From positions 1-59,083 of the forward strand of contig JAADFK010000118.1 in assembly GCA_013152925.1 (NCBI GenBank): a stretch of DNA of 59,083 nt, in the 5' to 3' direction. The position numbers and the translations under genes were made by a program. Positions 12,057 to 37,377 of this stretch are shown piece by piece. The stretch is from Acidobacteriota bacterium. GTDB lineage: Bacteria; Acidobacteriota; Thermoanaerobaculia; Thermoanaerobaculales; Sulfomarinibacteraceae. Within the stretch, counting starts at the first letter, position 1, and each line of letters starts with the position of its first letter. The notes under the pieces were generated by a model. The model had not been told where the DNA came from, made no database searches, and worked only from the letters and a program-made list of their open reading frames with translations.

Positions 12057-12257
12057 ATGAGTCCGTTTACATGGATTCGGGAGTTTATGGCGGTCTTCGC
12101 ACTGGCCTTCGTGGTCACCGCTGCGGTTTCATTCCTGTGGAGCCTGACGGCCCACGGAGCCGGCGCCGTGGACTGGGGATCGGCCGTGCGTTTCGGGATC
12201 ATCCTGGGCACCGTTCTGACCTGGATGAAGGCCCGTGACACCGGGAGGTCCGGCTGA
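12057..12257 (+). CDS. Small two-TM hypothetical protein
   Basis: GGGGAGG RBS then MSPFTWIREFMAVFALAFVV...DWGSAVRFGIILG. Confidence 0.65.
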   Translation: MSPFTWIREFMAVFALAFVVTAAVSFLWSLTAHGAGAVDWGSAVRFGIILGTVLTWMKARDTGRSG

Positions 12258-13349
12258 GGGCCGCACTCTCCCCGACGGAACCCTGACCGGAGCCGGAAGG
12301 CCTCTCCGGTGGAGCCGCTGGAGGCTCGCCGAGCCGTAGGTCGCGGGGCCGTGGTCCTTGCCGTGACAGATCAGGTAGCAGGCGCCCGAGCCGGGACCGG
12401 TGGACTCGAAGGCCAGCCGGCCCGTCGAGGGCGACGGCGCCACCCCGGAGATGATGGTCTCCTCGCCGAAGCGGATCAGGGCGCGGTTGATCACCGAGCC
12501 GTGGGGGTTGTGGCAGGTGGCGCAGGAGGCGCCGATCTCCACGATGTGCTCCCCGTGCTGCGGGAACGACGGGCTGCGCAGCACCTTGTCCCGGTCGTGG
12601 CAGGTGTAGCAGAGGGCGTAGGCCTCCTCGCTTTCGGGACCGTCGGTGGTCACGTAGCTCTTGCGGAGGATGTACTGGACCGGCGAGCCGTGCGGGCCCC
12701 GTGGGCCCGCCGGGTCGGCGTTGCCGTGGCAGTCAGTGCAGTTGATCTGCCCTCCTCTGAGCGACTCGATGACGGAGGGAGAGGAGCCGGCGGCCGGGGC
12801 CTCCACGGGGTGGTAGGAGGGGTTGCCGGGGTAGAGGAGCCGGCTGATATCGATGACGCTCTGCGTGGTGGCCCCGGCGCTGCCGTGGCACGACTCGCAG
12901 AGCTCGTACTCGAAACGGCTGGGGTTCCTCGGCGAGCGCTTCGGCGTCCCGCGGGGCACTTCTCCGGCATCGAGGGAGCCGCGGTGCGGGGCGTGGCAGG
13001 AGGTGCAGGTGGCCGTGGAGGCCAGCGCGGCCGAGGTGGCGGTCGTCTCCATGGGGTGGAGGTAGGGCTGGGAGAGAACGGAGGAGAGCAGGGGGGGCGT
13101 GGCGTCGCCGGCCAGCAGGTCCCGCGTCACCATGGCGTTCCTGTCCGCCAGCGTGCCGTGACACTGAAGGCACACGGCTTCAACGGGCTCGGGAAGCATG
13201 GGCGACTCCGGCATCCCGTGGCCCACGTGACAGGCTGGACATCCCCCGGGCACACGGCTCGGGTCCATGTGGGGCGTCTGGGCCGCTGCCGGGCGCACGG
13301 CGGTCGCCAGCGCCACGGCGGCCAGCAGGATCAGCGGAGTGCGTGGCAT
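12129..13349 (-). CDS. Multiheme cytochrome c (7 CxxCH + 1 CX3CH)
   Basis: Signal peptide MPRTPLILL...AAA. Motifs CPACH, CLQCH, CTSCH, CESCH, CTDCH, CYTCH, CATCH, CYLICH. Confidence 0.9.
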   Translation of the reverse strand: MPRTPLILLAAVALATAVRPAAAQTPHMDPSRVPGGCPACHVGHGMPESPMLPEPVEAVCLQCHGTLADRNAMVTRDLLAGDATPPLLSSVLSQPYLHPMETTATSAALASTATCTSCHAPHRGSLDAGEVPRGTPKRSPRNPSRFEYELCESCHGSAGATTQSVIDISRLLYPGNPSYHPVEAPAAGSSPSVIESLRGGQINCTDCHGNADPAGPRGPHGSPVQYILRKSYVTTDGPESEEAYALCYTCHDRDKVLRSPSFPQHGEHIVEIGASCATCHNPHGSVINRALIRFGEETIISGVAPSPSTGRLAFESTGPGSGACYLICHGKDHGPATYGSASLQRLHRRGLPAPVRVPSGRVRPSAGPPGVTGLHPGQNGAQDDPETHGRSPVHGAGSVGRQAPQE

Positions 13350-14029
13350 GTGATACAGACCTCCTGGACCGTCGGTTTCACCCAGAAATGGGGCACCTTG
13401 CCCTTCTCGTAGAACCTGTCGCTGTGGGGATCGTGGCAGGTGGTGCACTGCATCTTCCCCCGGGCGTCCAGGCGGACGTCGGGGTCCGCCGTGATGGAGG
13501 CAAGGGGACGAAGCCCCATGTCGCGGTCCTCCGCCGGGCTGGAGGCGCCGGCGGCGTCGGTCACGACAAAGGAGATGGGGTGGCTCCCGCTGAGGTCGGT
13601 GCCGATGTACCCCGGCCGGCCCGGCGTCAGCCGTTGGGGCCCCGCCATGGGGATGGGCCGTCCGCTCCCGATGTCGCCCAGGGCCACCGTCCCGTCGTGG
13701 CAGGAGAGGCAGAGTCGCGAGGAGCCGTCGGGCTGGGGCGCCGGCGCCGTGCCGCCCGAGGGTGAGGTGAGATCTGGAACGCGGTACTCGGCGGAGGAGA
13801 GGGTGTGGCCCCAGAGGGGGTGGGGCACCACGGCGCTGTGGGGAATGTGGCAGAACTTGCAGACCTCCGTCTCACTGACGGAACGGACCTGCCCGGGTCC
13901 GCTGACCGAGAGGTTGTGGAGCGTGTCGGCCACCCGCTGCTGGGCCCCCGCCGGGGCGGCAAGCCCGGCTGCCAGCCACAGGAACAGACCGGCCGCTGCC
14001 GGACCGACGGATCGGTGGGGAGTGTTCAT
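13331..14029 (-). CDS. OmcE-like tetraheme cytochrome c (divergent paralog)
   Basis: HNLS...VCKFCHIPH...PLW.H...LCLSCHDG...GTDLSGSHPISF...QCTTCHDPH...VCITCH; ATGA overlap with the upstream gene. Confidence 0.85.
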   Translation of the reverse strand: MNTPHRSVGPAAAGLFLWLAAGLAAPAGAQQRVADTLHNLSVSGPGQVRSVSETEVCKFCHIPHSAVVPHPLWGHTLSSAEYRVPDLTSPSGGTAPAPQPDGSSRLCLSCHDGTVALGDIGSGRPIPMAGPQRLTPGRPGYIGTDLSGSHPISFVVTDAAGASSPAEDRDMGLRPLASITADPDVRLDARGKMQCTTCHDPHSDRFYEKGKVPHFWVKPTVQEVCITCHALR

Positions 14030-15027
14030 GGCGTCACCTCCTCCGGAATGGGTGCGAACACCTGAAGGCGCCGGTTGAAGGAATCGGCCACCGCCACCCT
14101 GCCGTCGCCGGCGGCCGCCACCCCCGCGGGGAAGCCAAACTCTCCGGGCGCCGCGCCGTTGTGCCCGATGGACATCAGGTACTCCCCCCGCCGAGTGTAC
14201 AGGGCCACCTGGTCCAGCAGGGCGTCCGTCACCCAGAGCCTGCCCCTGGCGTCCACCGCAACGTCCTTCAAGCGGGGCATCTGGCCGGCCGTGTCGCCCA
14301 GGGTGCCGAAGCTCCCCAGCACTTTCCTGGAGACCGGGTCCACGTGCACGAGCCGGAAGTTGAGGGTGTCGCCGACCCACAGGGTGTCGCCGTCGGCGGC
14401 CAGGGCCGTGGGGAAGTTGAACAGCCCGGGCCCGTTGCCGCGGCCGCCCATCACGGTGGCGGCCTTCCCGTCGGTGAGCTCCACCAGCCGGTGAGCGGCG
14501 GTCTCCACCACGTAGACCCTGCCGGCGAGGCACGCCACCCCCGTGGGACGTTGCAGGTCGCTGGCCAGCCAGCGGACGAGCCGGAGCTTGCGGCCGAGCA
14601 GGGCCACCCGCCCCGCCGGCGGGTCGGAGACCACGATGCCGGCGCCACACGCCGCCACGAATGTCGGCGAGCCAAGGAGCCCCTCGGGGCTCCGGCTCAA
14701 CCCGCCGCCGGCGCCGATCCGGAGGACCCGCCCGGCCCCGGGATCGGCCACCAGGAGATCCCCGCCGTCCCAGGCCACGCCGTAGGGACGGGTGAACAAG
14801 GGCTCCCGGCGCCCCCCCCGCAGCCAGGCCGTGAAGGAACCCCTCGCGAGATCGCCACGGAGCCCGAGAACCCGCACGAGCTCGATGCGGGGATCCTCCG
14901 GAGGCCAGAACCGGACCCCCTCGGTCGATCCGGAGGCCGACGCCCCCGCCGACGGCCGGTGCACCACGGTGCAGCCGCCGGCCAGGAGCCCGGCCGTCAC
15001 CAGCACGAGGAGCGCCCGCCGTTTCAC
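14026..15027 (-). CDS. NHL-repeat beta-propeller lipoprotein
   Basis: Lipobox LAGGC; WPP..PRI motif; repeats of G..G..PG.F.FP..A; GTGA overlap with the upstream gene. Confidence 0.88.
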   Translation of the reverse strand: MKRRALLVLVTAGLLAGGCTVVHRPSAGASASGSTEGVRFWPPEDPRIELVRVLGLRGDLARGSFTAWLRGGRREPLFTRPYGVAWDGGDLLVADPGAGRVLRIGAGGGLSRSPEGLLGSPTFVAACGAGIVVSDPPAGRVALLGRKLRLVRWLASDLQRPTGVACLAGRVYVVETAAHRLVELTDGKAATVMGGRGNGPGLFNFPTALAADGDTLWVGDTLNFRLVHVDPVSRKVLGSFGTLGDTAGQMPRLKDVAVDARGRLWVTDALLDQVALYTRRGEYLMSIGHNGAAPGEFGFPAGVAAAGDGRVAVADSFNRRLQVFAPIPEEVTP

Positions 15028-16799
15028 CGGATGGTCCCCCGCCGCTGGGGCGCGCTGACGAAGGGCAGCCACCCGGCGAAGCGGGCGGTAACGGCGAGCA
15101 GGGCCCCCCGCGTTCGCCGCCGGCTTCCCTCGACGGTTTCCGTCTGGTCCCACAGCTGGGCCAGGAGAGCGTACCGGCCGAAATGCAGCTGGGCCGTTCC
15201 CTCGATCCGCCGGCGGTCCACGTCAGGACCCTGGGAGACCTCGCTGACGTTGTCGTTGTAGTTGACTCTCAGCGTGAGGAACCGCAGCGGCGCCCAGTGG
15301 ACGCTGGCGGCGAAGAAGCGGACGTTCTGGCGGATTTCGGAGCGGCCTGTGGTCTTTCCGGCATCGATGGTGCATCCCACACGGGGACCCGTGAGGGTAA
15401 CATCCAGGATGTCCGAGTCCACGGTCACCGGGACGATCTGGAAGCTCTCCTGCTTGCGGCGGCGGTGTTCCAGATAGGTGCTCAGATGCCAGCGTCTGAA
15501 CCGGCGGCGCAGGGTGACGCGGGCCCGGGCCCCGTCGTGGATACCGACACGCTCGTACTCCGTGCCGAGGTCGGGGAGCTCCACCAGGGCATCGCCGACG
15601 GTGCGCAGCTCGTTGTGGGCCACGGCCAGGTCCAGCTCGGCCCGAAGACGCTCCTCGGAGCCGGTTCCAAGAGTGCCGCCGGCCGACCAGGCGACCACCG
15701 TGGTCCGCTGGGAGCCGCCGTCCCACGACGTGTCGATCCTGGAGCTGCTGAGCCCGCCGTTGAGGCTGAGGTCGTACCCCTCGCCCGCACGGTTCCACGA
15801 CACGCTGACGCCGGCGGTCGGGGCCTTCACCGTGGTGTCGCCGCCCTGTTGCAGGGTGTAGCTGGCCGTCGGGATCACCTGGACGGCCGAGACGGCATGC
15901 CAGACGTAGCGCGCGGCCACGGTGTTGGTGGTGGTGGTCCGCTCGGCGTTCCGGCTGAGGCCGCCGGTGTAGGAGAGATCCACCAGGTCGCTGCGCGGTG
16001 TGGTGTAGACGAACCGGCTGCGAAGCCGCGCCGTGTCCACCGTGTTGCTGGTGTCCTCGTAGTCGAAGCTGCGGTGGAATCCGATGCCGCTGAGGTCCCA
16101 GCGCCAGCTGTCCGAGAGCAGGCCGTGCTCGTCCACCGTCAGGGTGTAGTCGTCGGTGGTGTAGCGGGTCCGGCCGTAGCGCCGGTACTGCCGTTCGAGG
16201 CGGTAGTGGTGGTTGATCCTGGCCGACGAGCCGGACCAGTCGAGGTACTGATGGATGAAGGCCTCGTCGCGGACCTTCGGGTCGATGAAGCTGGTGTCCG
16301 TCCGCTGGGTGCTGGCGGACAGCCCGCGGAAGATCCCCCCCCGGAAACGGACCCTCGCACCCCAGCTGGTGGTGGCATCCGCCAGGCCCGTGGTGGCCAG
16401 GGGGTCGTCGCTGTTGAGAACGTAGCCGTAGCGGCTGTGGGACAGAAAAAAGTGGGAGGGGTACAGCCCGAAGGGCAGGAGGGCGAGCTGCACCCTGAAG
16501 CCCAGCCGGTTGTTGTCAGGAGCCGTCGTGCCGGAGTAGTTGGAGAGCAATCCGTCGAGGCCGAGGCGGAACCGCGCGATGGCCGGGTGAATGATGAAGC
16601 CGTTCATACCGAGGTTCAGACGGAAGCTGCGCTCGGTGTAGTCGGTCAGGGCTCTTCCCTCGATCTCCGTCAGAAAGGACCGTTGCTGGAGCCCCAACAG
16701 CGCATCCCACGACCACTGACCGAAGAGCTGCCCCGCGGCATTCCGCGGGACGAGGAACGTTGCCCCCACCAGGAGCAGCGCCACGCCCCATCTGCGCAC
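15024..16799 (-). CDS. Putative large outer-membrane beta-barrel (porin/secretion channel)
   Basis: Signal peptide, then ~560 aa of alternating amphipathic strands rich in Y/R/S/T; no heme motifs. Confidence 0.7.
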   Translation of the reverse strand: MRRWGVALLLVGATFLVPRNAAGQLFGQWSWDALLGLQQRSFLTEIEGRALTDYTERSFRLNLGMNGFIIHPAIARFRLGLDGLLSNYSGTTAPDNNRLGFRVQLALLPFGLYPSHFFLSHSRYGYVLNSDDPLATTGLADATTSWGARVRFRGGIFRGLSASTQRTDTSFIDPKVRDEAFIHQYLDWSGSSARINHHYRLERQYRRYGRTRYTTDDYTLTVDEHGLLSDSWRWDLSGIGFHRSFDYEDTSNTVDTARLRSRFVYTTPRSDLVDLSYTGGLSRNAERTTTTNTVAARYVWHAVSAVQVIPTASYTLQQGGDTTVKAPTAGVSVSWNRAGEGYDLSLNGGLSSSRIDTSWDGGSQRTTVVAWSAGGTLGTGSEERLRAELDLAVAHNELRTVGDALVELPDLGTEYERVGIHDGARARVTLRRRFRRWHLSTYLEHRRRKQESFQIVPVTVDSDILDVTLTGPRVGCTIDAGKTTGRSEIRQNVRFFAASVHWAPLRFLTLRVNYNDNVSEVSQGPDVDRRRIEGTAQLHFGRYALLAQLWDQTETVEGSRRRTRGALLAVTARFAGWLPFVSAPQRRGTIR

Positions 16800-16805: not shown

Positions 16806-17792
16806 CTACTCCCCCCCCTCACCCTGGCGCAACGCCGGATCGAGGATGACCACCGGATGTTTGGCCTGTACCTCGTCATACCACCGCTTTTCCGCCCTCT
16901 TGAGCGCAGCCTTCTCCAGCTCCTTCCGGAGCATCGGCGCCGCTTCTTCGAAGCTCAGGGTCCGGCCGGGGCGGGCCTCCTTGACCAGCAGGAGATGGAC
17001 TCCCTCCCTGGTCCGGATGGGGCCCACGATGGATCCCACCGTGGCCTTCCAGGCCGCCTTCTCCAACGCCGGTTGGAGCCGTCCCCGGTGAACCCAGCCA
17101 AGGTCACCGCCCTTGATCCGGTACATCCCCTCGGAATCCCGGGCGGCCAGGTCGGTGAAGGGCGTGCCCGCCTCGGCCTCGGCCTTGATCTTTCGCGCCT
17201 CGGCCTCCCGTTTCGCCCACCGGGATCCATCGGCCGAGGGCGGCACCTTGAGCAGGATGTGGTAGAGATGCAGAGAGGGGGGCATCTTCCAGCGCGCGAC
17301 GTTGGCATCGTACGCCTTCCGAACGGCCGCCTCCGGGACCTTGGCCTTCTCCGTGACGAAGCGCCGGTACGCCTCCTGACCCAGCAGGGTCTCGGTGAGC
17401 GCGCGCACGTGATCCTCCCTGGTCCAGCCGTTGGCCTTCAGAGAACGCTCGTACTCCGTGGTCCCAAGCTGGATTTCCATGGCCGCCCGGCGACCCTCGG
17501 CATCCTTGGTTGGAGGTTTCAGCCCCCGGTCCCGGGCGCCCAGAACGTCCAGCTGGCGGTGGATCAGCGCTTGGAGCTGCTGGCGCCGAAGCGTGTCGAG
17601 CATCGCCTCGGGGAGCCGCTTGTGGTAGTACCCGGAGTTGACCGCCCGCTGGACGGCCAGATCGAGCTCCGCACGGGTGATGACCCTATTGCCCACCCTG
17701 GCGACGATATCAGCCTCGGCGGCCCTGGCCGGAGCCGCAAGAACGAACACTCCCGACATCGCCATGGCGGCCGCGAGCCAGCTCTTCATCAT
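16806..17792 (-). CDS. Parvulin/SurA-type peptidyl-prolyl isomerase
   Basis: Signal peptide; IVARVGNRVIT, HILLK, F.DLA...S...KGGDLGW, GPIRT.EG.HL. Confidence 0.9.
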   Translation of the reverse strand: MMKSWLAAAMAMSGVFVLAAPARAAEADIVARVGNRVITRAELDLAVQRAVNSGYYHKRLPEAMLDTLRRQQLQALIHRQLDVLGARDRGLKPPTKDAEGRRAAMEIQLGTTEYERSLKANGWTREDHVRALTETLLGQEAYRRFVTEKAKVPEAAVRKAYDANVARWKMPPSLHLYHILLKVPPSADGSRWAKREAEARKIKAEAEAGTPFTDLAARDSEGMYRIKGGDLGWVHRGRLQPALEKAAWKATVGSIVGPIRTREGVHLLLVKEARPGRTLSFEEAAPMLRKELEKAALKRAEKRWYDEVQAKHPVVILDPALRQGEGGE

Positions 17793-17892
17793 GTGTCCCA
17801 TGGGGTGATGCTCCTCCGTTTTCCGGACAGCGATTCATGCCACGCCGTGCGCGGCCGATTATCTCACGGACACTGGACAATTCTGACAAACC

Positions 17893-17921
17893 GGCGGGGA
17901 CCGGTGGTACCGGTCCCCGCC
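17893..17921 (-). terminator. Stem-loop (terminator or RNA stabiliser) directly after the main omcE-like gene
   Basis: Perfect 13-bp stem ggcggggaccggt / accggtccccgcc, followed by GGTTTGT on the minus strand. Confidence 0.6.
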
Positions 17922-17946: not shown

Positions 17947-18621
17947 CTACTTGATGTGGCAGGTGGTGCAGAGCGCGCTGGCGGTGTTGTCCATCACCAG
18001 GAAGGGCACGTTCGTCGGATCATGCACCTCGTGGCAGGAGGTGCACTGGACCTTGCTGTTGATGAGGAGCGCCGCCACCGCCGTGTCTGTGGCTGGATCG
18101 TTCAGGGCGCCATCGGCGGTCGCCAGGGCTGTGTCGTAGGTGAAGTTGACGGGATGATCGTCGGTCAGGTCCGTCCCCAGGTTGGCCGTGCTGATGATCA
18201 GTCCACCGGAATCGATTCGCCCGGAAATGGCCGTGATGGTCGGCGTGGTATCCTCGTTGGGCGGGTTGTACATGCTGGCAACGGAGACCGTGCCGTCGTG
18301 ACAGGACAGGCAGAGGTTCGAGGTCGGCGCCGTACCGGCCGTGGCGCCGCCAAGGTCCGTGACGTCGGTGGCGTCCAGCGTCGAGCTCGAGTAGGTGCCG
18401 TAGCTCGCCGTTGAGGACAGCGTGTGGTTCCACAGGGGGTACTGGCCGTTGGCCGCGCTGGCCTGGTGAGGGGTGTGGCAGAACACACAGACGCGGGTCA
18501 CATCGGTGGCAGGGGTCCCACCGGTGGTGCTCAGGTCGTGTTTCGAGCCAACGATGGTCTGCGCGTTGGCCATGACGGCGGTGACAAGCACCGCCAGGCA
18601 GATGATCAAAACTCTCTTCAT
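17947..18621 (-). CDS. omcE: OmcE-family tetraheme cytochrome c, candidate nanowire subunit
   Basis: GGAGG RBS and signal peptide. KHDLS...CVFCHTPH...PLWN...CLSCHDG...NLGTDLTDDHPVNF...CTSCHEVHD...PFL...LCTTCH.K matches the recalled Geobacter OmcE motif order throughout. Confidence 0.85.
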   Translation of the reverse strand: MKRVLIICLAVLVTAVMANAQTIVGSKHDLSTTGGTPATDVTRVCVFCHTPHQASAANGQYPLWNHTLSSTASYGTYSSSTLDATDVTDLGGATAGTAPTSNLCLSCHDGTVSVASMYNPPNEDTTPTITAISGRIDSGGLIISTANLGTDLTDDHPVNFTYDTALATADGALNDPATDTAVAALLINSKVQCTSCHEVHDPTNVPFLVMDNTASALCTTCHIK

Positions 18622-18690: not shown

Positions 18691-18706
18691 TGCAACCTCC
18701 GTGCCA
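18691..18706 (-). promoter_or_regulatory. sigma54 -24/-12 promoter for omcE
   Basis: TGGCAC-GGAGG-TTGCA, a perfect consensus. Confidence 0.85.
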
Positions 18707-18958: not shown

Positions 18959-19006
18959 GGGGTGAAAAGGCGCAGCCAACGGCGCCGGGCTGGGGATTAT
19001 TCCCCA
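18959..19006. promoter_or_regulatory. Paired palindromic sites (TGGGG-N6-CCCCA), candidate enhancer
   Basis: TGGGGATTATTCCCCA at 18991-19006 and a weaker GGGGTGAAAAGGCGCA at 18959-18974. Confidence 0.55.
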
Positions 19007-20058
19007 CTCTTCGGCTCGATGAAGCGGAAGAGCTGAACCCGCTTGTTGAGCTGGTCCACCACGGCGAAGAAGGGCCCATGGACTGCCACGCCGCCGGGGA
19101 GCTGGAACTGGCCGGGGCCGCTGCCGTTTTCGCCGACGAAGGTCAGCAGCCTGAGGTCGGCGTCGAAGATCTGGACGTTGCCGAAGGCGGCGTCGGTGAC
19201 GAAGACCAGGCCGTCGGCGTTGACGGCCACGTCCTTGGGCCGGACGAAGTTGCCGAAGCCAACGCCCAGGGCGCCGAAGGTCTCCAGCACCTCGCCGTCG
19301 GTGGTGAACACCTGGACGCGGGAGTTCATCTGGTCGACGACGAAGAGATCGCCCTCCGGCGAAAACGCCAGGGCGGAGGGGAAGTTGAACTGGCCCGGTC
19401 CCGTGCCCCGGGATCCGAAGCTCATGACGATCTCGCCGGTTCGGAGATCGAAGACCACGACCTTGTGGGCCTTGGAGTCGGTGACGTAAAGCCGGGTGCC
19501 GTCGGGCGAGACCTTGGCGTCGGTCGGATTGACCAGCTCTCCCTGGTGGCCGAAGACCTTGAGCAGCTTGCCCTCGGGCGAGAAGGCCACAACCTTGGTC
19601 AGGCCGGGATCCGCCACGTAGATCGTGCCGTCAGGCCCCACGGAGACACCAAGGGGAACCTTGAGACGGACCGCTCCCTTGACGCCGATCACGTCCATCT
19701 TGCGGCCGGCGCGGTCGAAGCGCACCAGGGCGCTGGTTCCCGGGTCGGTCACGAGGATCCGGTTCTGGCCGTCCAGGGCCACGCCGAAGGGCTTCTTGAG
19801 GAAGTCCCACGGGCTGTGGGGGCTCGAGCCGATGAGCGCCTTCTCGAAATTGGAGCGTGGCTCCACGTCGAGGCGGCTGTGGATGATGTCCACGAGCCGG
19901 ATGCGGGGCGTGTCCGGAGGTGGCGGCCACACATACTCGGCGTACTTGTCCTCGCGGCTCTTGGCCTCGGTGGGCTCGGCCTTGTGGACCGTGGTGCAGG
20001 CGAGGCTCCCGGCGGCCAGCGCCAGGGCGAGAACGAAACGGCAGGCTCGGGTCATCAT
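18997..20058 (-). CDS. NHL-repeat six-bladed beta-propeller lipoprotein
   Basis: Lipobox SLAC; VWPPPPDTPRI; repeated FG..G...GQF..P...A; GGAGG upstream. Confidence 0.9.
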   Translation of the reverse strand: MMTRACRFVLALALAAGSLACTTVHKAEPTEAKSREDKYAEYVWPPPPDTPRIRLVDIIHSRLDVEPRSNFEKALIGSSPHSPWDFLKKPFGVALDGQNRILVTDPGTSALVRFDRAGRKMDVIGVKGAVRLKVPLGVSVGPDGTIYVADPGLTKVVAFSPEGKLLKVFGHQGELVNPTDAKVSPDGTRLYVTDSKAHKVVVFDLRTGEIVMSFGSRGTGPGQFNFPSALAFSPEGDLFVVDQMNSRVQVFTTDGEVLETFGALGVGFGNFVRPKDVAVNADGLVFVTDAAFGNVQIFDADLRLLTFVGENGSGPGQFQLPGGVAVHGPFFAVVDQLNKRVQLFRFIEPKSGE

Positions 20059-22263: not shown

Positions 22264-22279
22264 AGCAAGGATCGTGCCA
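22264..22279 (-). promoter_or_regulatory. sigma54 -24/-12 promoter
   Basis: TGGCAC-GATCC-TTGCT, perfect consensus, in the 45-bp gap before gene 22240. Confidence 0.85.
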
Positions 22280-23644: not shown

Positions 23645-23647
23645 GGC

Positions 23648-31487: not shown

Positions 31488-32282
31488 ATGAGATCTCGGT
31501 ACATGATGACGATCCTGGCGGCGCTGCTGGCCGGCGGCATGGCCTGGTCCCTGGCCTGGAGCCAGACCACCGGCGTCCGGAAGCGCCGTCCCAAGCCCAA
31601 CGAGTACGGAACGGAGATCATCGACAACGCTTCTGTTGCCAACGGGATGGCCCCGGTGGCGTTTCCCCACTGGGTTCACCGGGCCCGCTACACCTGCCGG
31701 CTCTGCCACGTCGACATCGGTTTCGCCATGACCGCCGGGGAAACGGGCATCACCGAGGAGGACAACCGGCACGGGATGTACTGCGGCACCTGCCACAACG
31801 GCAAGATCGCCTTCCGGTGGGAAGAGGGCAGCAAGGGGGCTGTGAAGAAGAGCTGCCAACGGTGTCATTCGGTGGGGCTTCACGTCAAGATGCAGAACGA
31901 CTTCTACGCCTTTCGCGCGAAGATGCCGCGGCAGCGATTCGGGAACGGCATCGACTGGCTCAAGGCCGAGGAGGAGGGGCTCATCAAGCTGACCGACACC
32001 CTGCCCGGTGTCTCCTTCCAGCGGCCCAAGCTCCAGAGCCCTTCCGACGAGGAGCTGGTGGCCCGCGAGATCAACATGCCGAAAATCATCTTCTCCCACA
32101 AGAAGCACGCGGTGGAGGCCGGGTGCGAGCTTTGCCACCCGCAGATCTTCCCCATCAAGAAGGGGGCCGTCAGCTACTCCATGCAGGACATCTTCGACGG
32201 GAAGTACTGCGGCGCGTGCCACGGGAAGGTGTCCTTTCCCAACGCCGACTGCCAGCGCTGCCACACGGAGCCTGTGTTCTGA
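31488..32282 (+). CDS. c7-type hexaheme cytochrome c
   Basis: F.HW.HRARYTCRLCH, CGTCH, CQRCH, CELCH, CGACH, CQRCH; AGGAGG RBS. Confidence 0.9.
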   Translation: MRSRYMMTILAALLAGGMAWSLAWSQTTGVRKRRPKPNEYGTEIIDNASVANGMAPVAFPHWVHRARYTCRLCHVDIGFAMTAGETGITEEDNRHGMYCGTCHNGKIAFRWEEGSKGAVKKSCQRCHSVGLHVKMQNDFYAFRAKMPRQRFGNGIDWLKAEEEGLIKLTDTLPGVSFQRPKLQSPSDEELVAREINMPKIIFSHKKHAVEAGCELCHPQIFPIKKGAVSYSMQDIFDGKYCGACHGKVSFPNADCQRCHTEPVF

Positions 32283-33061
32283 TGCGGTCCACGCCGCCCG
32301 CCATCGCGGCGCTCCTCGGCGCCGCCCTGGTGGCCGCGACCGTTTGGGCCCAGGGACGGTTTCCCCTGCCAAAGCTGCCTCCTCCCGATCGCTACGGCAC
32401 GATCCTGATGGATCGTGCGTCCACCGGGGCCGGTGTCGAGCCCGTGGTGTTCGCCCACTGGCGGCACAGGGCCCGGTACAGCTGCCGGGTGTGCCACTTC
32501 GAGCTGGAATTCGCCCTGAAAACCGGCGCCACCGGAATCACCGAGGAGGACAACCGGCACGGGATGTACTGTGGCGCGTGCCACGATGGAACGACGGCCT
32601 TTGCCGTGACGGCGAACGACAACTGCCCTCGGTGCCACACGGGGAAGATCCGATCCGGGAAGAAGGCGTTCCGGAGGTTTGCCAGGAACCTCCCCACAGC
32701 GCCCTACGGCAACCACATCGACTGGGTGGCCGCCGAGAAGATCCTCAAGCCCAGGTACGCCCTGTACACCCGTGAGAAGCCGATCCAGTTCGACAAGAAG
32801 CTGGTCCTTCAAGCCGAGTGGTTCGGCATTCCGCCAGCCGTGTTTCCCCACGGCGTCCACGAGAGGTTCCTGGACTGCGGCAATTGCCATCCGGACATAT
32901 TCAACATCAAGAAGAAGACCACGAAACACTTCGAGATGCGGTACATCCTCCAGGGGAGGTTCTGCGGGGTCTGCCACCTGACGGTCGCCTTCCCCCTGGA
33001 CGACTGCCAACGCTGTCATCCCGCCATGCATCGGAGAAGAGGAGCCCAGGACCATGGCTAG
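32282..33061 (+). CDS. c7-type hexaheme cytochrome c (paralog of the upstream gene)
   Basis: TGATG coupling; CRVCH, CGACH, CPRCH, CGNCH, CGVCH, CQRCH; shares TGITEEDNRHGMYCG with its neighbour. Confidence 0.9.
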   Translation: MRSTPPAIAALLGAALVAATVWAQGRFPLPKLPPPDRYGTILMDRASTGAGVEPVVFAHWRHRARYSCRVCHFELEFALKTGATGITEEDNRHGMYCGACHDGTTAFAVTANDNCPRCHTGKIRSGKKAFRRFARNLPTAPYGNHIDWVAAEKILKPRYALYTREKPIQFDKKLVLQAEWFGIPPAVFPHGVHERFLDCGNCHPDIFNIKKKTTKHFEMRYILQGRFCGVCHLTVAFPLDDCQRCHPAMHRRRGAQDHG

Positions 33062-33125
33062 GATTATCGTCCTCGAGACCCGTTCATCGGCCATTCATGG
33101 ACGTTCAAGGAAGGGGGTTGCAACC

Positions 33126-34181
33126 ATGGAATCAGGAGCCAGGCTGGTCGGCGTCGTGATGATCATGCTGGGGGTGATGATGTGGGGAGGGCCGCTCGTG
33201 GCCGGTGCCGGGGTCGCACCCCTGCCCAAGGGCGCCACCATCGTCTGGAGCCACGCGCCGTACGGGATGGGCGAGTGCGGGATCTGCCACGTCAGGGACG
33301 ATCCGGCCGACCCCGGTCCCATCACGACCCAGAACGTCACCGAGCTCTGCTTTGGCTGCCACGAGGAGCTTCAAGACGCCATGGCAAAGTCCCGGTATTC
33401 CCATGCGGCGGTGGAAGACAGTTGCACCAACTGCCACAACCCGCACAACTCCGCCTACAAGAAGCTCCTGATCGCCGAGCCTCCCTCCCTCTGCGCCCAG
33501 TGCCATCAGGACATCTGGGACGAGGCGACCAAGGCCCCGGTACAGCACCGCGCGGTCCGTGACGGCAAGAGCTGCCTCAACTGCCATTCACCCCACGCTT
33601 CCAACGTGGACAGCCTCCTCCTGGACCTGCCGTACAACCTCTGTGTGACCTGCCACGGCAAGGACGGCGTCAAGGACGAGCAGGGCAAGACACTGACCAA
33701 CATCGCCGCCCTGCTGGCCAGCAACCCCGTGATCCACGGGCCGGTGGCTGACAAGGATTGCAGCGCCTGCCACACGCCCCATGGGGGAAAGTACTTCCGC
33801 CTCCTGACGACGGAGTACCCGGCCACGTTCTACTCGCCCTTCGACCCCAAGAGCTACGCCCTCTGCTTCACCTGTCACAACAGTGAGATCGTTGCGGTGG
33901 AAAGGACAACGACGCTCACGGGTTTCCGTGACGGCAACCGGAATCTCCACTACGTCCATGTCAACAAGAAAGAACGCGGCCGGACCTGCCGTGCCTGCCA
34001 CGAGGTTCACGCGGCCCCCCAGCCCCACCTGATCCGCAACGGCGTCCCCTACGGCAAGTCCGGCTGGATCCTCAAGATCAACTACACCCCGCTGCCCAAC
34101 GGCGGCCGGTGCGAAAAGACCTGCCACGGTGCCTTCACCTACGACCGGACCAAGGGCACGGCGTCCGGAGGAAGCTCGTGA
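33126..34181 (+). CDS. Decaheme cytochrome c (9 CxxCH + CX3CH)
   Basis: Signal peptide; CGICH, CFGCH, CTNCH, CAQCH, CLNCH, CVTCH, CSACH, CFTCH, CRACH, CEKTCH. Confidence 0.9.
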   Translation: MESGARLVGVVMIMLGVMMWGGPLVAGAGVAPLPKGATIVWSHAPYGMGECGICHVRDDPADPGPITTQNVTELCFGCHEELQDAMAKSRYSHAAVEDSCTNCHNPHNSAYKKLLIAEPPSLCAQCHQDIWDEATKAPVQHRAVRDGKSCLNCHSPHASNVDSLLLDLPYNLCVTCHGKDGVKDEQGKTLTNIAALLASNPVIHGPVADKDCSACHTPHGGKYFRLLTTEYPATFYSPFDPKSYALCFTCHNSEIVAVERTTTLTGFRDGNRNLHYVHVNKKERGRTCRACHEVHAAPQPHLIRNGVPYGKSGWILKINYTPLPNGGRCEKTCHGAFTYDRTKGTASGGSS

Positions 34182-34987
34182 GGCGGGGGGTCGCGGGCTT
34201 CACCCCGGTCCTCTTGGCCCTGACCATGGGATTGGCCTTCGTCAAGGTCGGTACCGTGATCCCCAACCCCGACCTCCCCGGCCTCGACGGGAGTGAGCAT
34301 GCCCTGGTCGATCGGCAACGGTTGACAGTCTTCCTGTTCTTCGACCCTGCCCAGCCCCGTTGCCTGGAGGTCATGCGGGAGATGGGGGGCCTCCAGGGTA
34401 GCTTCCCCAAGGAAAAGGTCCGCTGGGTCGGTATCGTCTCCGACCGGTTCGATCCGGCCAAGGCTGTAACGGCAGCGCGGGAGGCCGGCCTGGGCCTGGA
34501 GCTGCTGACCGACAGGGGCGACCAGCTCTACGGTGCCCTCGAGGTGCGCCTGTACCCCACCGTCGGCATCGTGGACACCAAGGGCGTCCTCAGGGCCTAC
34601 CTTCCCTACCACAAGGTCAATTTCACCGGTGCTCTCGATGCCGAGATCCGGCACGCCCTGGGCGAGATCGACGATGCCGCGCTCGAGCGCGCGCTCCACC
34701 CGCAGGCCGCGGACATCGGAACCAAGCAGGCCGAGGCGGGAAGGTACCTTCGGTTCGCCGAGATGCTGTGGAAGATGGGCAAGAGGGACAAGGCCATCGC
34801 CAAGGCACGCGAAGCTGCCGGGATCGCTCCCGGCTCCGCGGCGGCTCACGCCCTCCTTGGCAGCTACCTGGCCGGCGCCGGCGACTGCGAGAAAGCCCGC
34901 CCGGAGCTGGAGAAGGCCCTCCAGCTCGACCCGGACAACGAGCAGGCCCGCAAGGCCATGGAGGCGTGCCCGAAGCAGGGGCCGTAA
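34178..34987 (+). CDS. Redoxin (thioredoxin-fold) + TPR protein
   Basis: VG..IP...LPGLDG, QPRC in place of CxxC, cis-Pro loop LYPT.GIVD..G; C-terminal TPRs (LEKALQLDPDN). Confidence 0.75.
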   Translation: MRRGVAGFTPVLLALTMGLAFVKVGTVIPNPDLPGLDGSEHALVDRQRLTVFLFFDPAQPRCLEVMREMGGLQGSFPKEKVRWVGIVSDRFDPAKAVTAAREAGLGLELLTDRGDQLYGALEVRLYPTVGIVDTKGVLRAYLPYHKVNFTGALDAEIRHALGEIDDAALERALHPQAADIGTKQAEAGRYLRFAEMLWKMGKRDKAIAKAREAAGIAPGSAAAHALLGSYLAGAGDCEKARPELEKALQLDPDNEQARKAMEACPKQGP

Positions 34988-35322: not shown

Positions 35323-35338
35323 TGGCACGATTTCTGCT
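35323..35338 (+). promoter_or_regulatory. sigma54 -24/-12 promoter
   Basis: TGGCAC-GATTT-CTGCT upstream of the HD-GYP gene. Confidence 0.75.
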
Positions 35339-35403
35339 GTATCCTGGCAAAGAGGGCGGATGGGCGCCGCAACTGCGGATCTTCAGCGCCCGGGGGGGAC
35401 TCG

Positions 35404-36576
35404 GTGGGGAAAAGTTCGCACGTCGTGGGTTTCGGCGAGGACCCGGACTGGGATACCGGCCGGGCTGCCGGGGCCGCCTTCGGCCGGCTCCGAGGGGTGG
35501 TCGCAGCCGGCCACGGCCTCCTGGAACAGGGCACGGAGGGCTACCAGAAGGCGCTGGAGAGCTCCTGCGCCCAGATCGGGGTGCCGGTGGGGCTGCTCTT
35601 CATCCTCCGCCCGGAGGGGGATACCCTCGAGCTCATGGCGAGCCAGGGGATTCCCTGCTGCCAGGGGGACGTCCCGACCATCGGGGTGCAGGAGGGTCTT
35701 TCCGGATGGGTCGCCGCCGCGCGGACCATGGTCGTCGTCAACGACGTGGAGGACGACGGCCGGTTCGGCCCGGTGTCGGCGCTCGGGTACCGGCGCCTGT
35801 CCGCCATCAGCGTGCCGCTCGAGCACGACGGTGACCTGCTCGGCGTCCTCACGCTGGCGAGCCCCCAACCCAACGCGTTCGCCACCGAGGATCTGCTGGT
35901 GGTGGAGGCGCTGGCGACAAACCTCTCGCTGGGGCTCCGGTGCCGGGAGTACCGGGAGGCCGAGGCCCGGAACTACCTCGGTATCATCCGTGGGCTCGCC
36001 ACGGCGCTGGAGGCCAAGGACGCGGTGACGCGAGGTCACTCGGCGAGAGTCGCCCACATGTGCCACCACATCGGGCTTGCCCTCGGCGTGGAACAGCCCG
36101 CACTGGAACGTCTGGAAGTGGCTGCTTCGCTCCACGACCTGGGCAAGATCGGCGTCCCCGAGGCCGTGCTGAACAAGCCCGGGCCGCTCGATTCTCACGA
36201 GCTGGAGCTGATACGGCGTCATCCCGCCGTGGGGGCGGAGATGCTGGAGGAGATCCCGCTGCTCTCGGATCTGGCACCGGTGGTGCGGGGCCACCACGAG
36301 CGCTTCGGTGGAGGAGGCTATCCGGACGGCCTTGAGGGCCACGGGATCCCGCTCCACAGCCGGATCATTGCGGTGGCCGACGCTCTCGATGCCATGCTCA
36401 TGCCGAGGCCCTACCGCCGGGACCGGACGGTGGACGAAGCGCTGGCCGAGCTTCGGGAGTGCTCGGGAACCCACTTCGATCCGCGGGTCGTGGAGGCCCT
36501 GACCCGGGTTGTGACCGCGGAGGGTTGCGGCCACTTCTTCTCGCCGCTCCCGCCGGCCTGCTGCACCGTCACTTGA
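35404..36576 (+). CDS. GAF + HD-GYP cyclic-dinucleotide phosphodiesterase
   Basis: EAKD..TRGHS.RV, LHDLGKIG, HHERFGGGGYPDGL, RIIAVADALDAM. Start placed downstream of the sigma54 promoter. Confidence 0.9.
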   Translation: MGKSSHVVGFGEDPDWDTGRAAGAAFGRLRGVVAAGHGLLEQGTEGYQKALESSCAQIGVPVGLLFILRPEGDTLELMASQGIPCCQGDVPTIGVQEGLSGWVAAARTMVVVNDVEDDGRFGPVSALGYRRLSAISVPLEHDGDLLGVLTLASPQPNAFATEDLLVVEALATNLSLGLRCREYREAEARNYLGIIRGLATALEAKDAVTRGHSARVAHMCHHIGLALGVEQPALERLEVAASLHDLGKIGVPEAVLNKPGPLDSHELELIRRHPAVGAEMLEEIPLLSDLAPVVRGHHERFGGGGYPDGLEGHGIPLHSRIIAVADALDAMLMPRPYRRDRTVDEALAELRECSGTHFDPRVVEALTRVVTAEGCGHFFSPLPPACCTVT

Positions 36577-37306
36577 CGTGACAGGTGGTACAGAGCTGGC
36601 TGCCGTCGTTCGGTATCCGGAGGAAGGGGACGTTGGCCGGGTCATGGACGTTGTGGCAGGTGGGGCACTCCACCTTTCCGGCGTAGAGCGGGACCAGCGC
36701 CCATCCGGCGTTCAGGTCCGGCGGCGTGTTGAACATGGGGTCCTGCGCGGTGGTCGGGTAGGTCATGGCGATGGGATGATCATCGGAGAGGTCCGTTCCC
36801 TGCCAGACCGGTGGAGGATCCCCGTAGATCGGCCCGTGGCAACGCCGGCAGTTGGGGTAGGAGGATGTGTCCGGGATGCCACCAGGTCCAGGGGCGTTGA
36901 TCAGGTCGTGCTTGGTGCTCCCGGTGATACCGTTGACCACCGCCGTTCCGTTGGTTCCGTCATGGCATCCGAGGCACAGCATGGAAACCGTGGTGTTGGG
37001 GTTGCCAGGCGTCGTGTCCATGGTGGGGCTGGTGTAGACGGTAAAGGTCTCGTTGGTGTCGATGAAGCGGTTCCACAGCGGCGCCTGGATGGGTAGCGTC
37101 GGATTGGCAAAGTGCGGTGTGTGGCAGAACACGCAGACCCGGTCGGAGTACGGATCCACGCCAGTGGTGGAAAGATCGTGCTTCGAACCGAGAATGCTGG
37201 CGCCGATGACGACGCCGGTGGAAACCATGAAAACGACGATCCCAAGGCCGGCGGTCAGTCGAAACCGCAAGCCGCGCTTCTCATGAACGGTCCAATGTTT
37301 CGCCAT
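36569..37306 (-). CDS. OmcE-family cytochrome c with five CxxCH motifs
   Basis: GSKHDLS...CVFCHTPH...PLWNR...CLGCHDG...CRRCH...GTDLSDDHP...CPTCHNVHDP..PFLR...LCTTCHVK. Confidence 0.88.
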   Translation of the reverse strand: MAKHWTVHEKRGLRFRLTAGLGIVVFMVSTGVVIGASILGSKHDLSTTGVDPYSDRVCVFCHTPHFANPTLPIQAPLWNRFIDTNETFTVYTSPTMDTTPGNPNTTVSMLCLGCHDGTNGTAVVNGITGSTKHDLINAPGPGGIPDTSSYPNCRRCHGPIYGDPPPVWQGTDLSDDHPIAMTYPTTAQDPMFNTPPDLNAGWALVPLYAGKVECPTCHNVHDPANVPFLRIPNDGSQLCTTCHVK

Positions 37307-37361
37307 ATGTCGTGGTCCTCATGCGGTCAACGTTCCAGGCCCTGCACTGCCTGAAGCCAGT

Positions 37362-37377
37362 TACAAGAACCGTGCCA
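37362..37377 (-). promoter_or_regulatory. Probable sigma54 promoter for the pentaheme omcE paralog
   Basis: TGGCAC-GGTTC-TTGTA (one mismatch at -12). Confidence 0.65.

What the first reader, a model, noticed from the sequence alone, without database searches (positions are those of the whole stretch)
12129..37377. Candidate OmcE-type cytochrome nanowire production, export and regulation island
Seen: ~25 kb with 10 multiheme cytochromes (about 84 heme motifs by manual count), including three OmcE-like paralogs. It also holds two NHL lipoproteins, a ~590-aa beta-barrel, a parvulin PPIase, a redoxin-TPR protein and a dedicated two-component system; many genes are translationally coupled. Established: Geobacter OmcE polymerises into conductive filaments, and from memory Geobacter nanowire loci are flanked by NHL-propeller and cytochrome genes. 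Inference: this is a self-contained extracellular electron transfer system (periplasmic 21-, 10- and 6-heme relay, barrel, surface filament) in a host that is probably not Geobacter. No heme-maturation genes and no quinol-oxidising inner-membrane partner are in the window.
Basis: partly seen in the sequence, partly recalled or inferred. Interest (0 to 1): 0.9.

Follow-up and report, generated by a model that had tools for sequence, protein, structure and literature searches.

The report
OmcE nanowire cluster with candidate anchor
This uncultured sulfur-cycling acidobacterium carries a gene cluster of the type that builds Geobacter's conductive OmcE cytochrome filaments, plus a two-gene piece, fused in many other bacteria, that likely ends the filament and may plug it into an outer-membrane pore, a part whose identity is still open.

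Summary
In detail: ten multiheme cytochromes (84 motifs including a sensor kinase), three OmcE homologues with all eight heme histidines, a predicted 28-strand unplugged barrel and two NHL lipoproteins. The host is a dsr/apr/qmo-bearing Thermoanaerobaculia genome; heme maturation genes and candidate quinol oxidases lie on other contigs.

The core is the known omcE-type cluster (Petersen 2026). The same gene order was tabulated in Ca. Sulfomarinibacter (Flieder 2021) without being recognised as OmcE.

What this window adds is a likely division of labour. omcE_B has its own sigma-54 box and is likely the shaft. omcE_A plus the overlapping 7(8)-heme gene are a split form of a widespread 11-heme protein with an OmcE head and an MtrA-like stem. 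Histidine counting makes it a likely chain terminator, coupled to the barrel gene: a candidate for the in-operon anchor or tip that Petersen did not find. omcE_C is a 5-heme variant. A divergent operon encodes an exosortase/signal-peptidase polyprotein predicted to release a pentaheme cytochrome.

The scan had already noted the fused end-piece idea on two other genomes. Filaments, binding and function are untested.

The parts
12129..13349 (-). MHC7: 7 CxxCH + 1 CxxxCH cytochrome; C-terminal half of the widespread 11-heme fusion; MtrA-like stem; candidate terminator/plug
   Evidence: overlaps omcE_A by 19 nt
13331..14029 (-). omcE_A: tetraheme OmcE-fold head, N-terminal half of the 11-heme fusion; likely minor end subunit
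   Evidence: no sigma-54 box upstream in 0 of 12 relative rows
14026..15027 (-). NHL1 beta-propeller lipoprotein (lipobox LAGGC read from the sequence)
15024..16799 (-). Predicted 28-strand plug-less outer-membrane beta-barrel, no Pfam/NCBIfam family
16806..17801 (-). SurA/parvulin-type periplasmic PPIase-chaperone
17893..17921 (-). 13-bp GC-rich hairpin just after the omcE_B stop (possible terminator or mRNA stabiliser)
   Evidence: no shuffle control
17947..18621 (-). omcE_B: tetraheme OmcE orthologue at the canonical NHL-omcE-barrel position; likely major filament subunit
18692..18706 (-). Exact sigma-54 -24/-12 box, 71 nt before the omcE_B start
   Evidence: 2 exact matches in the window, 0.13 expected; 7 of 13 distinct relatives
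18997..20058 (-). NHL2 beta-propeller lipoprotein (lipobox SLAC read from the sequence)
20073..21824 (-). MHC21: 21-heme paired-CXXCH wire, predicted periplasmic, with exactly 21 invariant distal His (closed chain)
21854..22240 (-). Small receiver-like protein heading the core operon (no family hit; receiver-like is my reading of the sequence)
22265..22279 (-). Exact sigma-54 box before the core operon
   Evidence: 5 of 7 distinct relatives
22286..23644 (-). NtrC-family sigma-54 response regulator
23648..25138 (-). Histidine kinase with a periplasmic sensor domain (PF21563) carrying one CxxCH
   Evidence: motif kept in relatives
25283..25297 (+). Degenerate sigma-54-like box before the polyprotein operon (read by eye)
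   Evidence: similar box in G036
25324..28608 (+). Polyprotein: Ig/PKD + NHL + two choice-of-anchor-D domains, internal IPTL-CTERM (27520-27600), second signal peptide, pentaheme cytochrome (from about 27661)
28605..31439 (+). MHC13: N-terminal heme-free region plus 13 CxxCH + 1 CxxxCH; C-terminal part resembles the MHC7 module; likely surface cytochrome
31488..33061 (+). Two c7-type hexaheme cytochromes (TIGR04257 twice each); accessory block
33054..34181 (+). MHC10: 9 CxxCH + 1 CxxxCH paired-CXXCH cytochrome; accessory block
34178..34987 (+). Redoxin-fold/TPR protein without a CxxC motif; accessory block
35323..36576 (+). One-mismatch sigma-54 box (35323-35337) and GAF/HD-GYP c-di-GMP phosphodiesterase gene (35404-36576)
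36569..37377 (-). omcE_C (36569-37306): five-heme OmcE-like protein with an inserted His + CxxCH; one-mismatch sigma-54 box at 37363-37377

Best explanation
The region is an omcE-type gene cluster that likely builds a conductive cytochrome filament: OmcE_B would polymerise as the shaft, while the OmcE_A-MHC7 pair, one fused 11-heme protein in many other bacteria, is predicted to end the chain and would sit in the predicted 28-strand barrel as its anchor. Shown: OmcE homology and ligands, the gene order shared with other omcE clusters, the fusion in homologues, and the sigma-54 boxes. Inferred: (1) the heme-bearing kinase and the NtrC regulator switch on sigma-54 promoters before the core operon and, separately, before omcE_B, so that it is made in excess over the translationally coupled barrel-NHL1-omcE_A-MHC7 block; (2) Ccm system I matures the cytochromes, and the PPIase and two NHL lipoproteins help fold and load the barrel; (3) each OmcE subunit donates the His after its first heme motif to the open third heme of its neighbour; (4) MHC7 donates such a His to OmcE_A and has no open heme left, so the chain stops there; (5) electrons pass from inner-membrane cytochromes encoded elsewhere through the closed 21-heme periplasmic wire and the MtrA-like stem into the filament, most likely towards Fe(III)/Mn(IV) oxides, sulfur or partner cells. 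OmcE_C (five hemes) is likely an alternative or 'leaky' subunit. The divergent operon likely adds surface-displayed partners.
For: Homology: OmcE matches for all three paralogues; the eight canonical His are present in at least 99% of 135 aligned OmcE domains. Cluster type: the gene set equals Petersen's minimal cluster, and the barrel profile hits ~600-aa ORFs next to omcE in 21 of 80 loci at E<1e-3. Fusion: 119 of the 120 best longer homologues of OmcE_A have an OmcE head and an MHC7-like tail, 116 of them with 11 CxxCH; 23 of 80 loci hold the fusion and 9 a stand-alone MHC7-type gene; 12 of 13 split heads nest among fused ones (SH-aLRT 99, quick tree). Structure: a model of the fused homologue P0003 matches OmcE over residues 27-220 (Z 8.7, 3.6 A, 159 aligned) and chain A of the Mtr complex over 209-560 (Z 7.3, 4.3 A, 212 aligned). 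His counting: MHC21 has exactly 21 invariant distal His for 21 hemes, and its module-initial motifs lack the following His (11 of 11 sequences); MHC7 keeps that His on its first motif (116 of 116 fused, 13 of 13 stand-alone) and has 10 distal His for 8 hemes. Regulation: a sigma-54 box lies before omcE_B in 7 of 13 distinct relatives and before omcE_A in 0 of 11, against a 1% background; rpoN is present. Support genes: ccmABC/F-like genes and candidate inner-membrane cytochromes lie on other contigs.
Against: No filament, expression or electron transfer was observed. The end piece is not universal: 15 of 28 loci with a barrel hit and at least 4 kb of downstream DNA lack it, and the G. sulfurreducens operon gsu0615-0617 lies upstream of omcE, so its two cytochromes take the MHC21 position. 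The His-to-heme assignment is inferred from sequence pattern; no model with hemes was inspected, and the OmcE structure paper could not be read. MHC7 has two surplus His where the model needs one, fused forms have two more, and OmcE_A and OmcE_B carry further conserved His, so the count is not exact. The MtrA match is below Z 8 and may reflect a common multiheme arrangement. The role of cytochrome filaments in Fe(III) reduction is itself disputed (Schwarz 2024 abstract). Six of 13 relatives lack the sigma-54 box under my pattern.
Confidence: 0.6

Rival explanations
1. The same filament is made, but OmcE_A-MHC7 is the distal tip, secreted first, that starts the filament and contacts minerals; new OmcE_B subunits are added underneath.
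For: The His logic fixes only which chemical end is capped, not whether that end faces the cell. Surplus His and a low-complexity tail would suit an exposed tip. Petersen names the tip as an open question.
Against: The tail half resembles the barrel-filling chain of the Mtr complex, and the genes are coupled to the barrel by overlapping stops and starts. By the chaperone-usher analogy, a donor without an open acceptor is the anchor.
Confidence: 0.2
2. No long filament is made: the cluster is a short Mtr-like porin-cytochrome conduit with OmcE-fold surface cytochromes, as such acidobacterial clusters were read by Flieder 2021 and, probably, Fiorito 2026 (EET1).
For: The large barrel, the MtrA-like stem and the periplasmic wire are enough for a conduit. 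Both papers read the clusters that way.
Against: OmcE_B keeps the spare first-motif His and open third-heme pattern of polymer-forming OmcE, and it has its own promoter and downstream hairpin, which suggests non-stoichiometric excess. Both solved homologues are filaments.
Confidence: 0.2
3. Filaments form but serve mainly electron uptake or biofilm cohesion in a sulfur-cycling cell, not metal-oxide respiration.
For: The host has dsrAB, dsrMKJOP, aprA and qmo. c-di-GMP enzymes lie in and beside the cluster. Close omcE_B relatives occur in genomes labelled Thiobacillus, Sideroxydans and Sulfuricella. Bundles have been proposed to aid biofilms.
Against: Flieder reports a syntenic cluster in Thermoanaerobaculum aquaticum, an Fe/Mn-oxide reducer said to have no other predicted extracellular cytochromes; that this is the same cluster type rests on the table order.
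Confidence: 0.2
4. All 25 kb are one functional, self-contained island, with the c7 hexahemes and the decaheme as obligatory relay steps.
For: The block is co-oriented and coupled downstream of MHC13 here and lies on the polyprotein contig in G006. A c7 pair or a related 14-heme/redoxin pair lies near the core in L003 and L005.
Against: The block is absent from the same position in G036, G027 and G014. The first c7 gene was found in 2 of 60 relatives against 7 of 60 for the barrel. Maturation and quinol-oxidation genes lie elsewhere.
Confidence: 0.12

Closest known systems
omcE cluster of Desulfuromonadia (G. sulfurreducens OmcE, PDB 7TFS; D. soudanensis OmcE, PDB 9YUQ; Petersen et al. 2026, PMC13712944)
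   Same: OmcE subunit with four CxxCH and four distal His, two beta-propeller lipoproteins, a large barrel and upstream multiheme cytochrome(s); no glycosylation genes seen beside it, as in the marine/thermophilic minimal type.
   Different: The host phylum, Acidobacteriota, is not among the paper's five. One 21-heme gene replaces two upstream cytochromes. A PPIase is inserted. An in-operon OmcE-head/MHC7 end piece is present, where the paper found no tip or anchor candidate in omcE operons. A linked five-heme paralogue and a dedicated sigma-54 two-component system are added, and the host uses Ccm rather than the adjacent ResB/CcsB.
'Extracellular cytochromes' cluster of Ca. Sulfomarinibacter and T. 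aquaticum (Flieder et al. 2021, PMC8528874, Suppl. Table 5 rows 63-70)
   Same: Same class and consecutive order: multiheme, NHL, (row 65 not seen), PPIase, barrel, 'barrel', multiheme.
   Different: Read there as a porin-cytochrome metal-reduction candidate; 'OmcE' does not occur in the text or the two held supplements, nor 'nanowire' in the text. Identity with this cluster rests on gene order, not sequence.
EET1 porin-scaffold-cytochrome cluster of peat Terriglobia (Fiorito et al. 2026, bioRxiv 10.64898/2026.05.27.727921)
   Same: Acidobacteriota; porin plus scaffold plus 'OmcE-like' multiheme models of 8-13 hemes, transcribed in situ. My Terriglobales loci carry the fused 11-heme form.
   Different: Interpreted as an Mtr-like conduit; 'nanowire' does not occur in the text. 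Figures and supplements could not be seen, so the match is probable, not shown.
osc (OmcS companion) cluster (Shen et al. 2025; seen only second-hand in PMC13194489 passages)
   Same: Filament subunit with paralogues, large multiheme cytochromes and proteins proposed for folding and secretion in one operon.
   Different: Built on hexaheme OmcS; no window protein matched OmcS by sequence in the PDB searches.
MtrAB (PDB 6R2Q)
   Same: Large barrel plus a multiheme stem; longest barrel alignment (453 residues, Z 12.5) and best fold match of the end-piece tail (Z 7.3).
   Different: 28 predicted strands against 26; 11% identity; the stem is joined to an OmcE head, not paired with MtrC.
IPTL-CTERM / midcut-by-XrtH proteins (TIGR04174, NF033207)
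   Same: Internal IPTL motif, transmembrane helix and basic cluster, then a second hydrophobic helix; exosortase H is in the genome.
   Different: The downstream payload is a pentaheme cytochrome; the NF033207 score is below its cut-off (29.8 of 45 bits); MYXO-CTERM versions of the same design exist (P0302, P0303).

Membership tests
omcE-type nanowire cluster | OmcE-homologous tetraheme subunit | tested here: met
   E 1e-30 to 7TFS and 9YUQ for omcE_B
omcE-type nanowire cluster | Four CxxCH plus four conserved distal His | tested here: met
   All eight present in A, B and C; at least 99% over 135 rows
omcE-type nanowire cluster | Large outer-membrane beta-barrel next to omcE | tested here: met
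   28-strand model, pLDDT 95.2; profile hits at the same position in other phyla
omcE-type nanowire cluster | Two beta-propeller lipoproteins | tested here: met
   PF01436 in both; lipoboxes read from the sequence
omcE-type nanowire cluster | Companion multiheme cytochromes | tested here: met
   MHC21 upstream, MHC7 downstream; orthology to GSU0615/0616 not tested by sequence
omcE-type nanowire cluster | Barrel homologous to the Geobacter/Desulfuromonas omcE-cluster barrel | not tested
   No Desulfuromonadia locus was among the 80 fetched
omcE-type nanowire cluster | Inter-subunit His coordination of one heme | tested here: inconclusive
   All ligands are conserved and the spare-His pattern is present; which His crosses the interface is inferred, as the structure paper was not held
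omcE-type nanowire cluster | Forms conductive extracellular filaments | not testable with these tools
   Needs cryo-EM and conductivity measurements
Five-heme OmcE-like family (Petersen 2026) | OmcE core plus one extra CxxCH at similar length | tested here: met
   omcE_C, 245 aa, with an inserted His + CxxCH in 5 of 6 C-type rows
'Anchor' subunit as defined by Petersen 2026 | OmcE-like fold with a surplus His so that no heme stays open | tested here: inconclusive
   OmcE head shown; the pair has surplus conserved His, but geometry with hemes was not modelled
'Anchor' subunit as defined by Petersen 2026 | Encoded in and inherited with the omcE cluster | tested here: met
   Beside the barrel in 7 of 7 barrel-bearing relatives; fused or split form in 32 of 80 loci
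Mtr/Pcc porin-cytochrome conduit | MtrB/PioB-family barrel | tested here: inconclusive
   No family hit; generic barrel matches only
Mtr/Pcc porin-cytochrome conduit | Multiheme cytochrome filling the barrel lumen | tested here: inconclusive
   MtrA-like tail at Z 7.3; not shown to bind
OmcS/osc cluster | Hexaheme OmcS-family subunit | tested here: inconclusive
   No OmcS sequence match for the five window cytochromes searched against the PDB; the polyprotein's pentaheme has an OmcS-like motif rhythm (recalled), untested by fold
IPTL-CTERM / XrtH substrate | IPTL motif, transmembrane helix, basic cluster | tested here: met
   TIGR04174 27.8 bits, cut-off 20.5
IPTL-CTERM / XrtH substrate | Exosortase H in the genome | tested here: met
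   TIGR04177 117.5 bits, cut-off 86, contig C101
midcut-by-XrtH (NF033207) | Score over the curated cut-off | tested here: not met
   29.8 of 45 bits here, 43.5 in P0294; the architecture is alike

The most novel reading that the evidence does not exclude
OmcE nanowires outside Geobacter are built like chaperone-usher pili with a dedicated end piece: an OmcE-head/MtrA-like-stem cytochrome (fused 11-12 hemes in Acidobacteriota, Bacteroidota, Ignavibacteria and Gammaproteobacteria; split in Thermoanaerobaculia) that plugs a 28-strand barrel, ends polymerisation by histidine donation and wires the filament to the periplasm. This locus adds a switchable five-heme subunit and a self-splitting surface-protein/cytochrome polyprotein.
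Probability: 0.35. Interest if true: 0.82.

Novelty: new variant of a known kind. Interest (0 to 1): 0.58.

Why it matters
How cytochrome nanowires are secreted, anchored and ended is stated as unanswered in 2026, with no tip or anchor candidate found in omcE operons. This cluster type offers an in-operon candidate with specific residues to test and a sequence rule (His counting) that separates closed wires, polymer subunits and terminators. It also recasts clusters already seen in marine and peat Acidobacteriota as probable nanowire loci. If the T. aquaticum cluster named by Flieder is of this type, a cultured Fe/Mn reducer is available for the test. The core itself is not new.

Tried and rejected
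1. MHC21 as an open 'base' subunit, because its end resembles OmcE's: rejected, since its His budget closes at 21 of 21.

2. Complex prediction of barrel with MHC7: no answer, score 0.00, controls not run; not used either way.

3. Expression: no RNA holder was listed. Three added runs (X1-X3) gave only short chance matches in the pieces listed; no evidence either way.

4. OmcS identity of the polyprotein's pentaheme: no PDB match by sequence or profile. The Atlas gave only a generic paired-CXXCH cluster.

5. A close solved relative of the barrel: none listed.

6. Mobile-island signs: no tRNA and no clear GC shift. The patchy distribution (7 of 60) and differing flanks fit transfer or loss; not resolved.

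7. The one-mismatch sigma-54 scan alone is not significant (6 found, 3.8 expected); only the exact matches and their conservation are used. The sigma-70 and terminator scans were at chance level.

8. dsrD was not found, but the control also gave nothing, so the direction of sulfur metabolism is open.

9. Rows dropped or corrected: L048 and L058 were false 'MHC7' labels from a text-matching slip. L005/L101 is one genome and was counted once (L103 duplicates L001 and was left out). P0002 looks like a run-through gene call of the split form. The tree is the quick search on 90 subsampled rows.

10. Papers not held: Wang 2022 (OmcE structure) and Shen 2025 (osc). Petersen's supplement was unreadable, Fiorito's supplements are closed, and no figures were visible; any of these may list Acidobacteriota or the fused protein.

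Full report
Observation. The window (68% GC, contig C118 of a 3.68 Mb genome, 95.85% complete) holds ten multiheme cytochromes between 12129 and 37306, with 80 CxxCH motifs. The core runs on the minus strand: kinase, NtrC regulator, small receiver-like gene, 21-heme MHC21, NHL2, omcE_B, PPIase, barrel, NHL1, omcE_A, MHC7. A divergent plus-strand set holds a 1094-aa 5-heme ORF, a 13-heme gene, two c7 hexahemes, a decaheme, a redoxin-TPR gene and an HD-GYP gene. omcE_C follows on the minus strand.

OmcE identity. Each paralogue matches only the two solved OmcE chains: omcE_B at about 1e-30, omcE_C at 1e-26, omcE_A at 2e-19. The four proximal and four distal histidines are present in all three and in at least 99% of 135 aligned domains. 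omcE_C has an inserted His plus a fifth CxxCH, the five-heme type that Petersen et al. already proposed as a separate family (section 9 read). The 591-aa protein has no Pfam, NCBIfam or PDB sequence match, but it folds with pLDDT 95.2 into 28 strands without a plug. Fold searches return only generic barrels, the longest alignment being chain B of the Mtr complex. Its profile hits ~600-aa ORFs beside omcE in 21 of 80 loci at E<1e-3 and more weakly in many others.

Host. CarB is 95% identical to that of the genome behind L001, labelled Thermoanaerobaculia, and 78% to one labelled Thermoanaerobaculales, against 51-54% for three others. The genome encodes dsrAB, dsrK/J/P, aprA, qmoC and ccmA/B/C/F-like genes. 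It also encodes candidate inner-membrane electron donors: a NapC/NirT-type pentaheme, a 23-heme cytochrome fused to cytochrome b561, and 9- and 11-heme genes beside cytochrome b genes. It has 31 ORFs with three or more CxxCH, and OmcE homologues occur only in this window.

Distribution. The barrel was found in 7 of 60 relatives. All seven have NHL-omcE_B-PPIase-barrel-NHL1-omcE_A-MHC7, six with MHC21 directly in front. G036 and G027 keep the whole order from omcE_C to MHC7, and G014 keeps it from MHC13 to MHC7; none of the three has the c7/c7/decaheme/redoxin block there, and the block's first gene was found in 2 of 60 relatives. omcE_C lies by the cluster in 5 of the 7. The genome scan found 292 related stretches; the best 80 include Acidobacteriota, Pseudomonadota, Nitrospirota, Bacteroidota and Ignavibacteria.

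What is known. Petersen et al. 2026 (passages plus sections 8, 9 and 12 read) define the minimal cluster as two multiheme cytochromes, two propeller lipoproteins, OmcE and a large barrel. They list five phyla without Acidobacteriota, call secretion and termination unanswered, and find no tip or anchor candidate in omcE operons. Flieder et al. 2021 (passages and supplement rows) tabulate multiheme-NHL-(row not seen)-PPIase-barrel-'barrel'-multiheme in Ca. Sulfomarinibacter and call such clusters syntenic with T. aquaticum, without naming OmcE. Fiorito et al. 2026 (abstract, sections 9 and 11, passages) describe a transcribed porin-scaffold-cytochrome cluster with 'OmcE-like' models in Terriglobia, read as an Mtr-like conduit. 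The core is thus a known kind, already seen in this phylum under another reading. A search for 'OmcE-like' with 'nanowire' listed only Petersen, and one for Acidobacteriota with OmcE listed four papers, of which I read passages of two; neither proposed an end piece in what I saw. Two key papers and several supplements were not readable.

Division of labour. Two exact sigma-54 boxes occur in the window against 0.13 expected: before the core operon and 71 nt before omcE_B (consensus recalled). In relatives a box precedes omcE_B in 7 of 13 distinct genomes and the operon head in 5 of 7. None precedes omcE_A, NHL1, the barrel or the PPIase; background is 1%. One-mismatch boxes precede omcE_C and the HD-GYP gene, and rpoN is present. 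A GC-rich hairpin follows omcE_B in all 14 rows folded, without a shuffle control. By contrast barrel, NHL1, omcE_A and MHC7 overlap by 4, 4 and 19 nt. I infer a major subunit made in excess and a stoichiometric envelope block.

The end piece. Of the 120 best longer homologues of OmcE_A (999 passed E 0.001), 119 have an OmcE head and an MHC7-like tail, 116 of them with 11 CxxCH. Among the 80 loci, 23 have the fusion, 9 a stand-alone MHC7-type gene and 48 neither; many of the 48 are cut short, but 15 of 28 loci with a barrel hit and at least 4 kb downstream truly lack it. In a quick tree, 12 of 13 split heads nest among fused ones (support 99), apart from the B and C types, so the window's pair is likely a fission. 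A model of the fused homologue P0003 (pLDDT 76) matches OmcE over its first 220 residues (Foldseek E 1.8e-5; Z 8.7) and, best for the rest, chain A of the Mtr complex (Z 7.3, 212 residues; that this chain is MtrA is recalled). Z under 8 is only suggestive.

Histidine counting (inference). These proteins repeat a unit: His, then CxxCH-xx-His, then CxxCH. In MHC21 the first motifs of each module lack the trailing His, the last unit has a doubled leading His, and exactly 21 distal His are invariant for 21 hemes in 11 sequences. This implies that the trailing His binds the odd heme of the previous unit and that MHC21 is a closed wire. In OmcE the first motif has the trailing His with no previous unit, and the third heme has no later donor. 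That fits the published cross-subunit coordination (passages of PMC9473688 and PMC12954529) and my recollection of OmcS. MHC7 keeps the trailing His on its first motif in 116 of 116 fused and 13 of 13 stand-alone copies and ends in a doubled His, with 10 distal His for 8 hemes. It can donate to OmcE_A and offers no open heme, which is Petersen's anchor criterion. The count is not exact: one His is left over, fused forms have two more, and A and B types carry a ninth His in 83-91% of rows.

The polyprotein. The 1094-aa ORF carries Ig/PKD, NHL and two choice-of-anchor-D domains, an IPTL-CTERM signal over the cut-off, a second signal peptide and a pentaheme domain. It is one ORF in G000, G036, G006, G007 and G018 and in 13 protein clusters. 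It is two genes in G014 and G027, where the first ends in the IPTL-type tail and the second has its own signal peptide. Exosortase H is in the genome, and this is its only over-cut-off IPTL signal. P0302 and P0303 use MYXO-CTERM in the same design. I infer cleavage into a surface protein and a cytochrome at 1:1. The pentaheme has six invariant distal His for five hemes, so it too may donate to a partner. None of the 12 papers listed (of 29) contains 'IPTL-CTERM', 'midcut' or 'XrtH'.

Verdict. This is a real omcE-type cluster (about 0.9) that probably makes OmcE_B filaments (about 0.7). OmcE_A-MHC7 is probably a terminal piece, more likely an anchor than a tip. I reached the end-piece reading before consulting the scan's notes; two earlier notes on other genomes say the same and are not independent evidence. 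The additions here are the split form, the His control, the promoter pattern and the polyprotein. Novelty: new variant of a known kind; interest 0.58.

Noticed in passing
window 5174-11855 (-): CusA/CzcA-type RND pump, CusB-like adaptor with a heavy-metal-binding domain, outer-membrane efflux protein and a small Cys/His-rich gene directly downstream of the core operon; not beside the cluster in the relatives fetched.
   Followed up: no
window 37678-40353 (+): GAF-GGDEF diguanylate cyclase divergent from omcE_C, then a DUF4388-GAF gene; with the HD-GYP gene this puts c-di-GMP synthesis and breakdown on both sides of omcE_C.
   Followed up: no
window 50444-52699 (-): Single-subunit nitric oxide reductase (NorB cytochrome-c-like + COX1 domains).
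   Followed up: no
L124:669-2636 (-) (G000 C6): A 9-heme cytochrome fused to a TauE/SafE sulfite-exporter domain, directly after qmoC in the apr-qmo locus; unusual architecture.
   Followed up: no
L121:3003-8575 (-) (G000 C105): 23-heme cytochrome fused to cytochrome b561, followed by a 19-heme cytochrome; candidate quinol oxidase and periplasmic wire.
   Followed up: partly
L120:2045-8361 (+) (G000 C149): DUF3373 protein, octaheme tetrathionate-reductase-like gene, and GSU2203/GSU2204-family pair over their cut-offs.
   Followed up: no
L125:3501-6860 (-) (G000 C50): 1120-aa 9-heme MtrC/MtrF-like cytochrome with PKD and Ig domains, a second candidate surface cytochrome.
   Followed up: no
P0001: A 495-aa protein joining an NHL propeller to an OmcE_A domain, a possible second fusion hint that NHL1 and OmcE_A act together; single short contig, may be a gene-calling artefact.
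   Followed up: no
L063, L066, L071: Bacteroidota loci with NHL, the fused 11-heme gene first and then two stand-alone OmcE-like genes; no barrel hit in the fetched DNA.
   Followed up: no
L075, L077, L079, L080: Acidobacteriaceae loci where one to three 330-440 aa ORFs with 3-4 heme motifs and no match to window proteins stand where omcE is expected, upstream of the fused 11-heme gene.
   Followed up: no
L013, L027, L028, L031, L033-L035, L040, L041, L047, L051, L055: Proteobacterial variant: NHL-omcE-barrel followed by unrelated 8-, 7-/6- and 3-heme genes and another NHL/multiheme pair, without the end piece in the fetched flank.
   Followed up: partly
L095:13440-14951 (G050): The NtrC-family regulator is split into two ORFs in this relative; pseudogene or assembly error.
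   Followed up: no
window omcE_B His66, omcE_A His75 and His214: A ninth His (LWxH) is kept in 83-91% of B, A and fused rows but is Arg in both solved OmcE chains and in omcE_C; a further His is kept in 80% of split A types only. Role unexplained.
   Followed up: partly
L112, L113, L114: Relatives with a separate NHL + 11-13-heme gene whose front resembles the polyprotein's pentaheme; in G050 the rear resembles MHC13, suggesting a second head-plus-stem fusion family.
   Followed up: no
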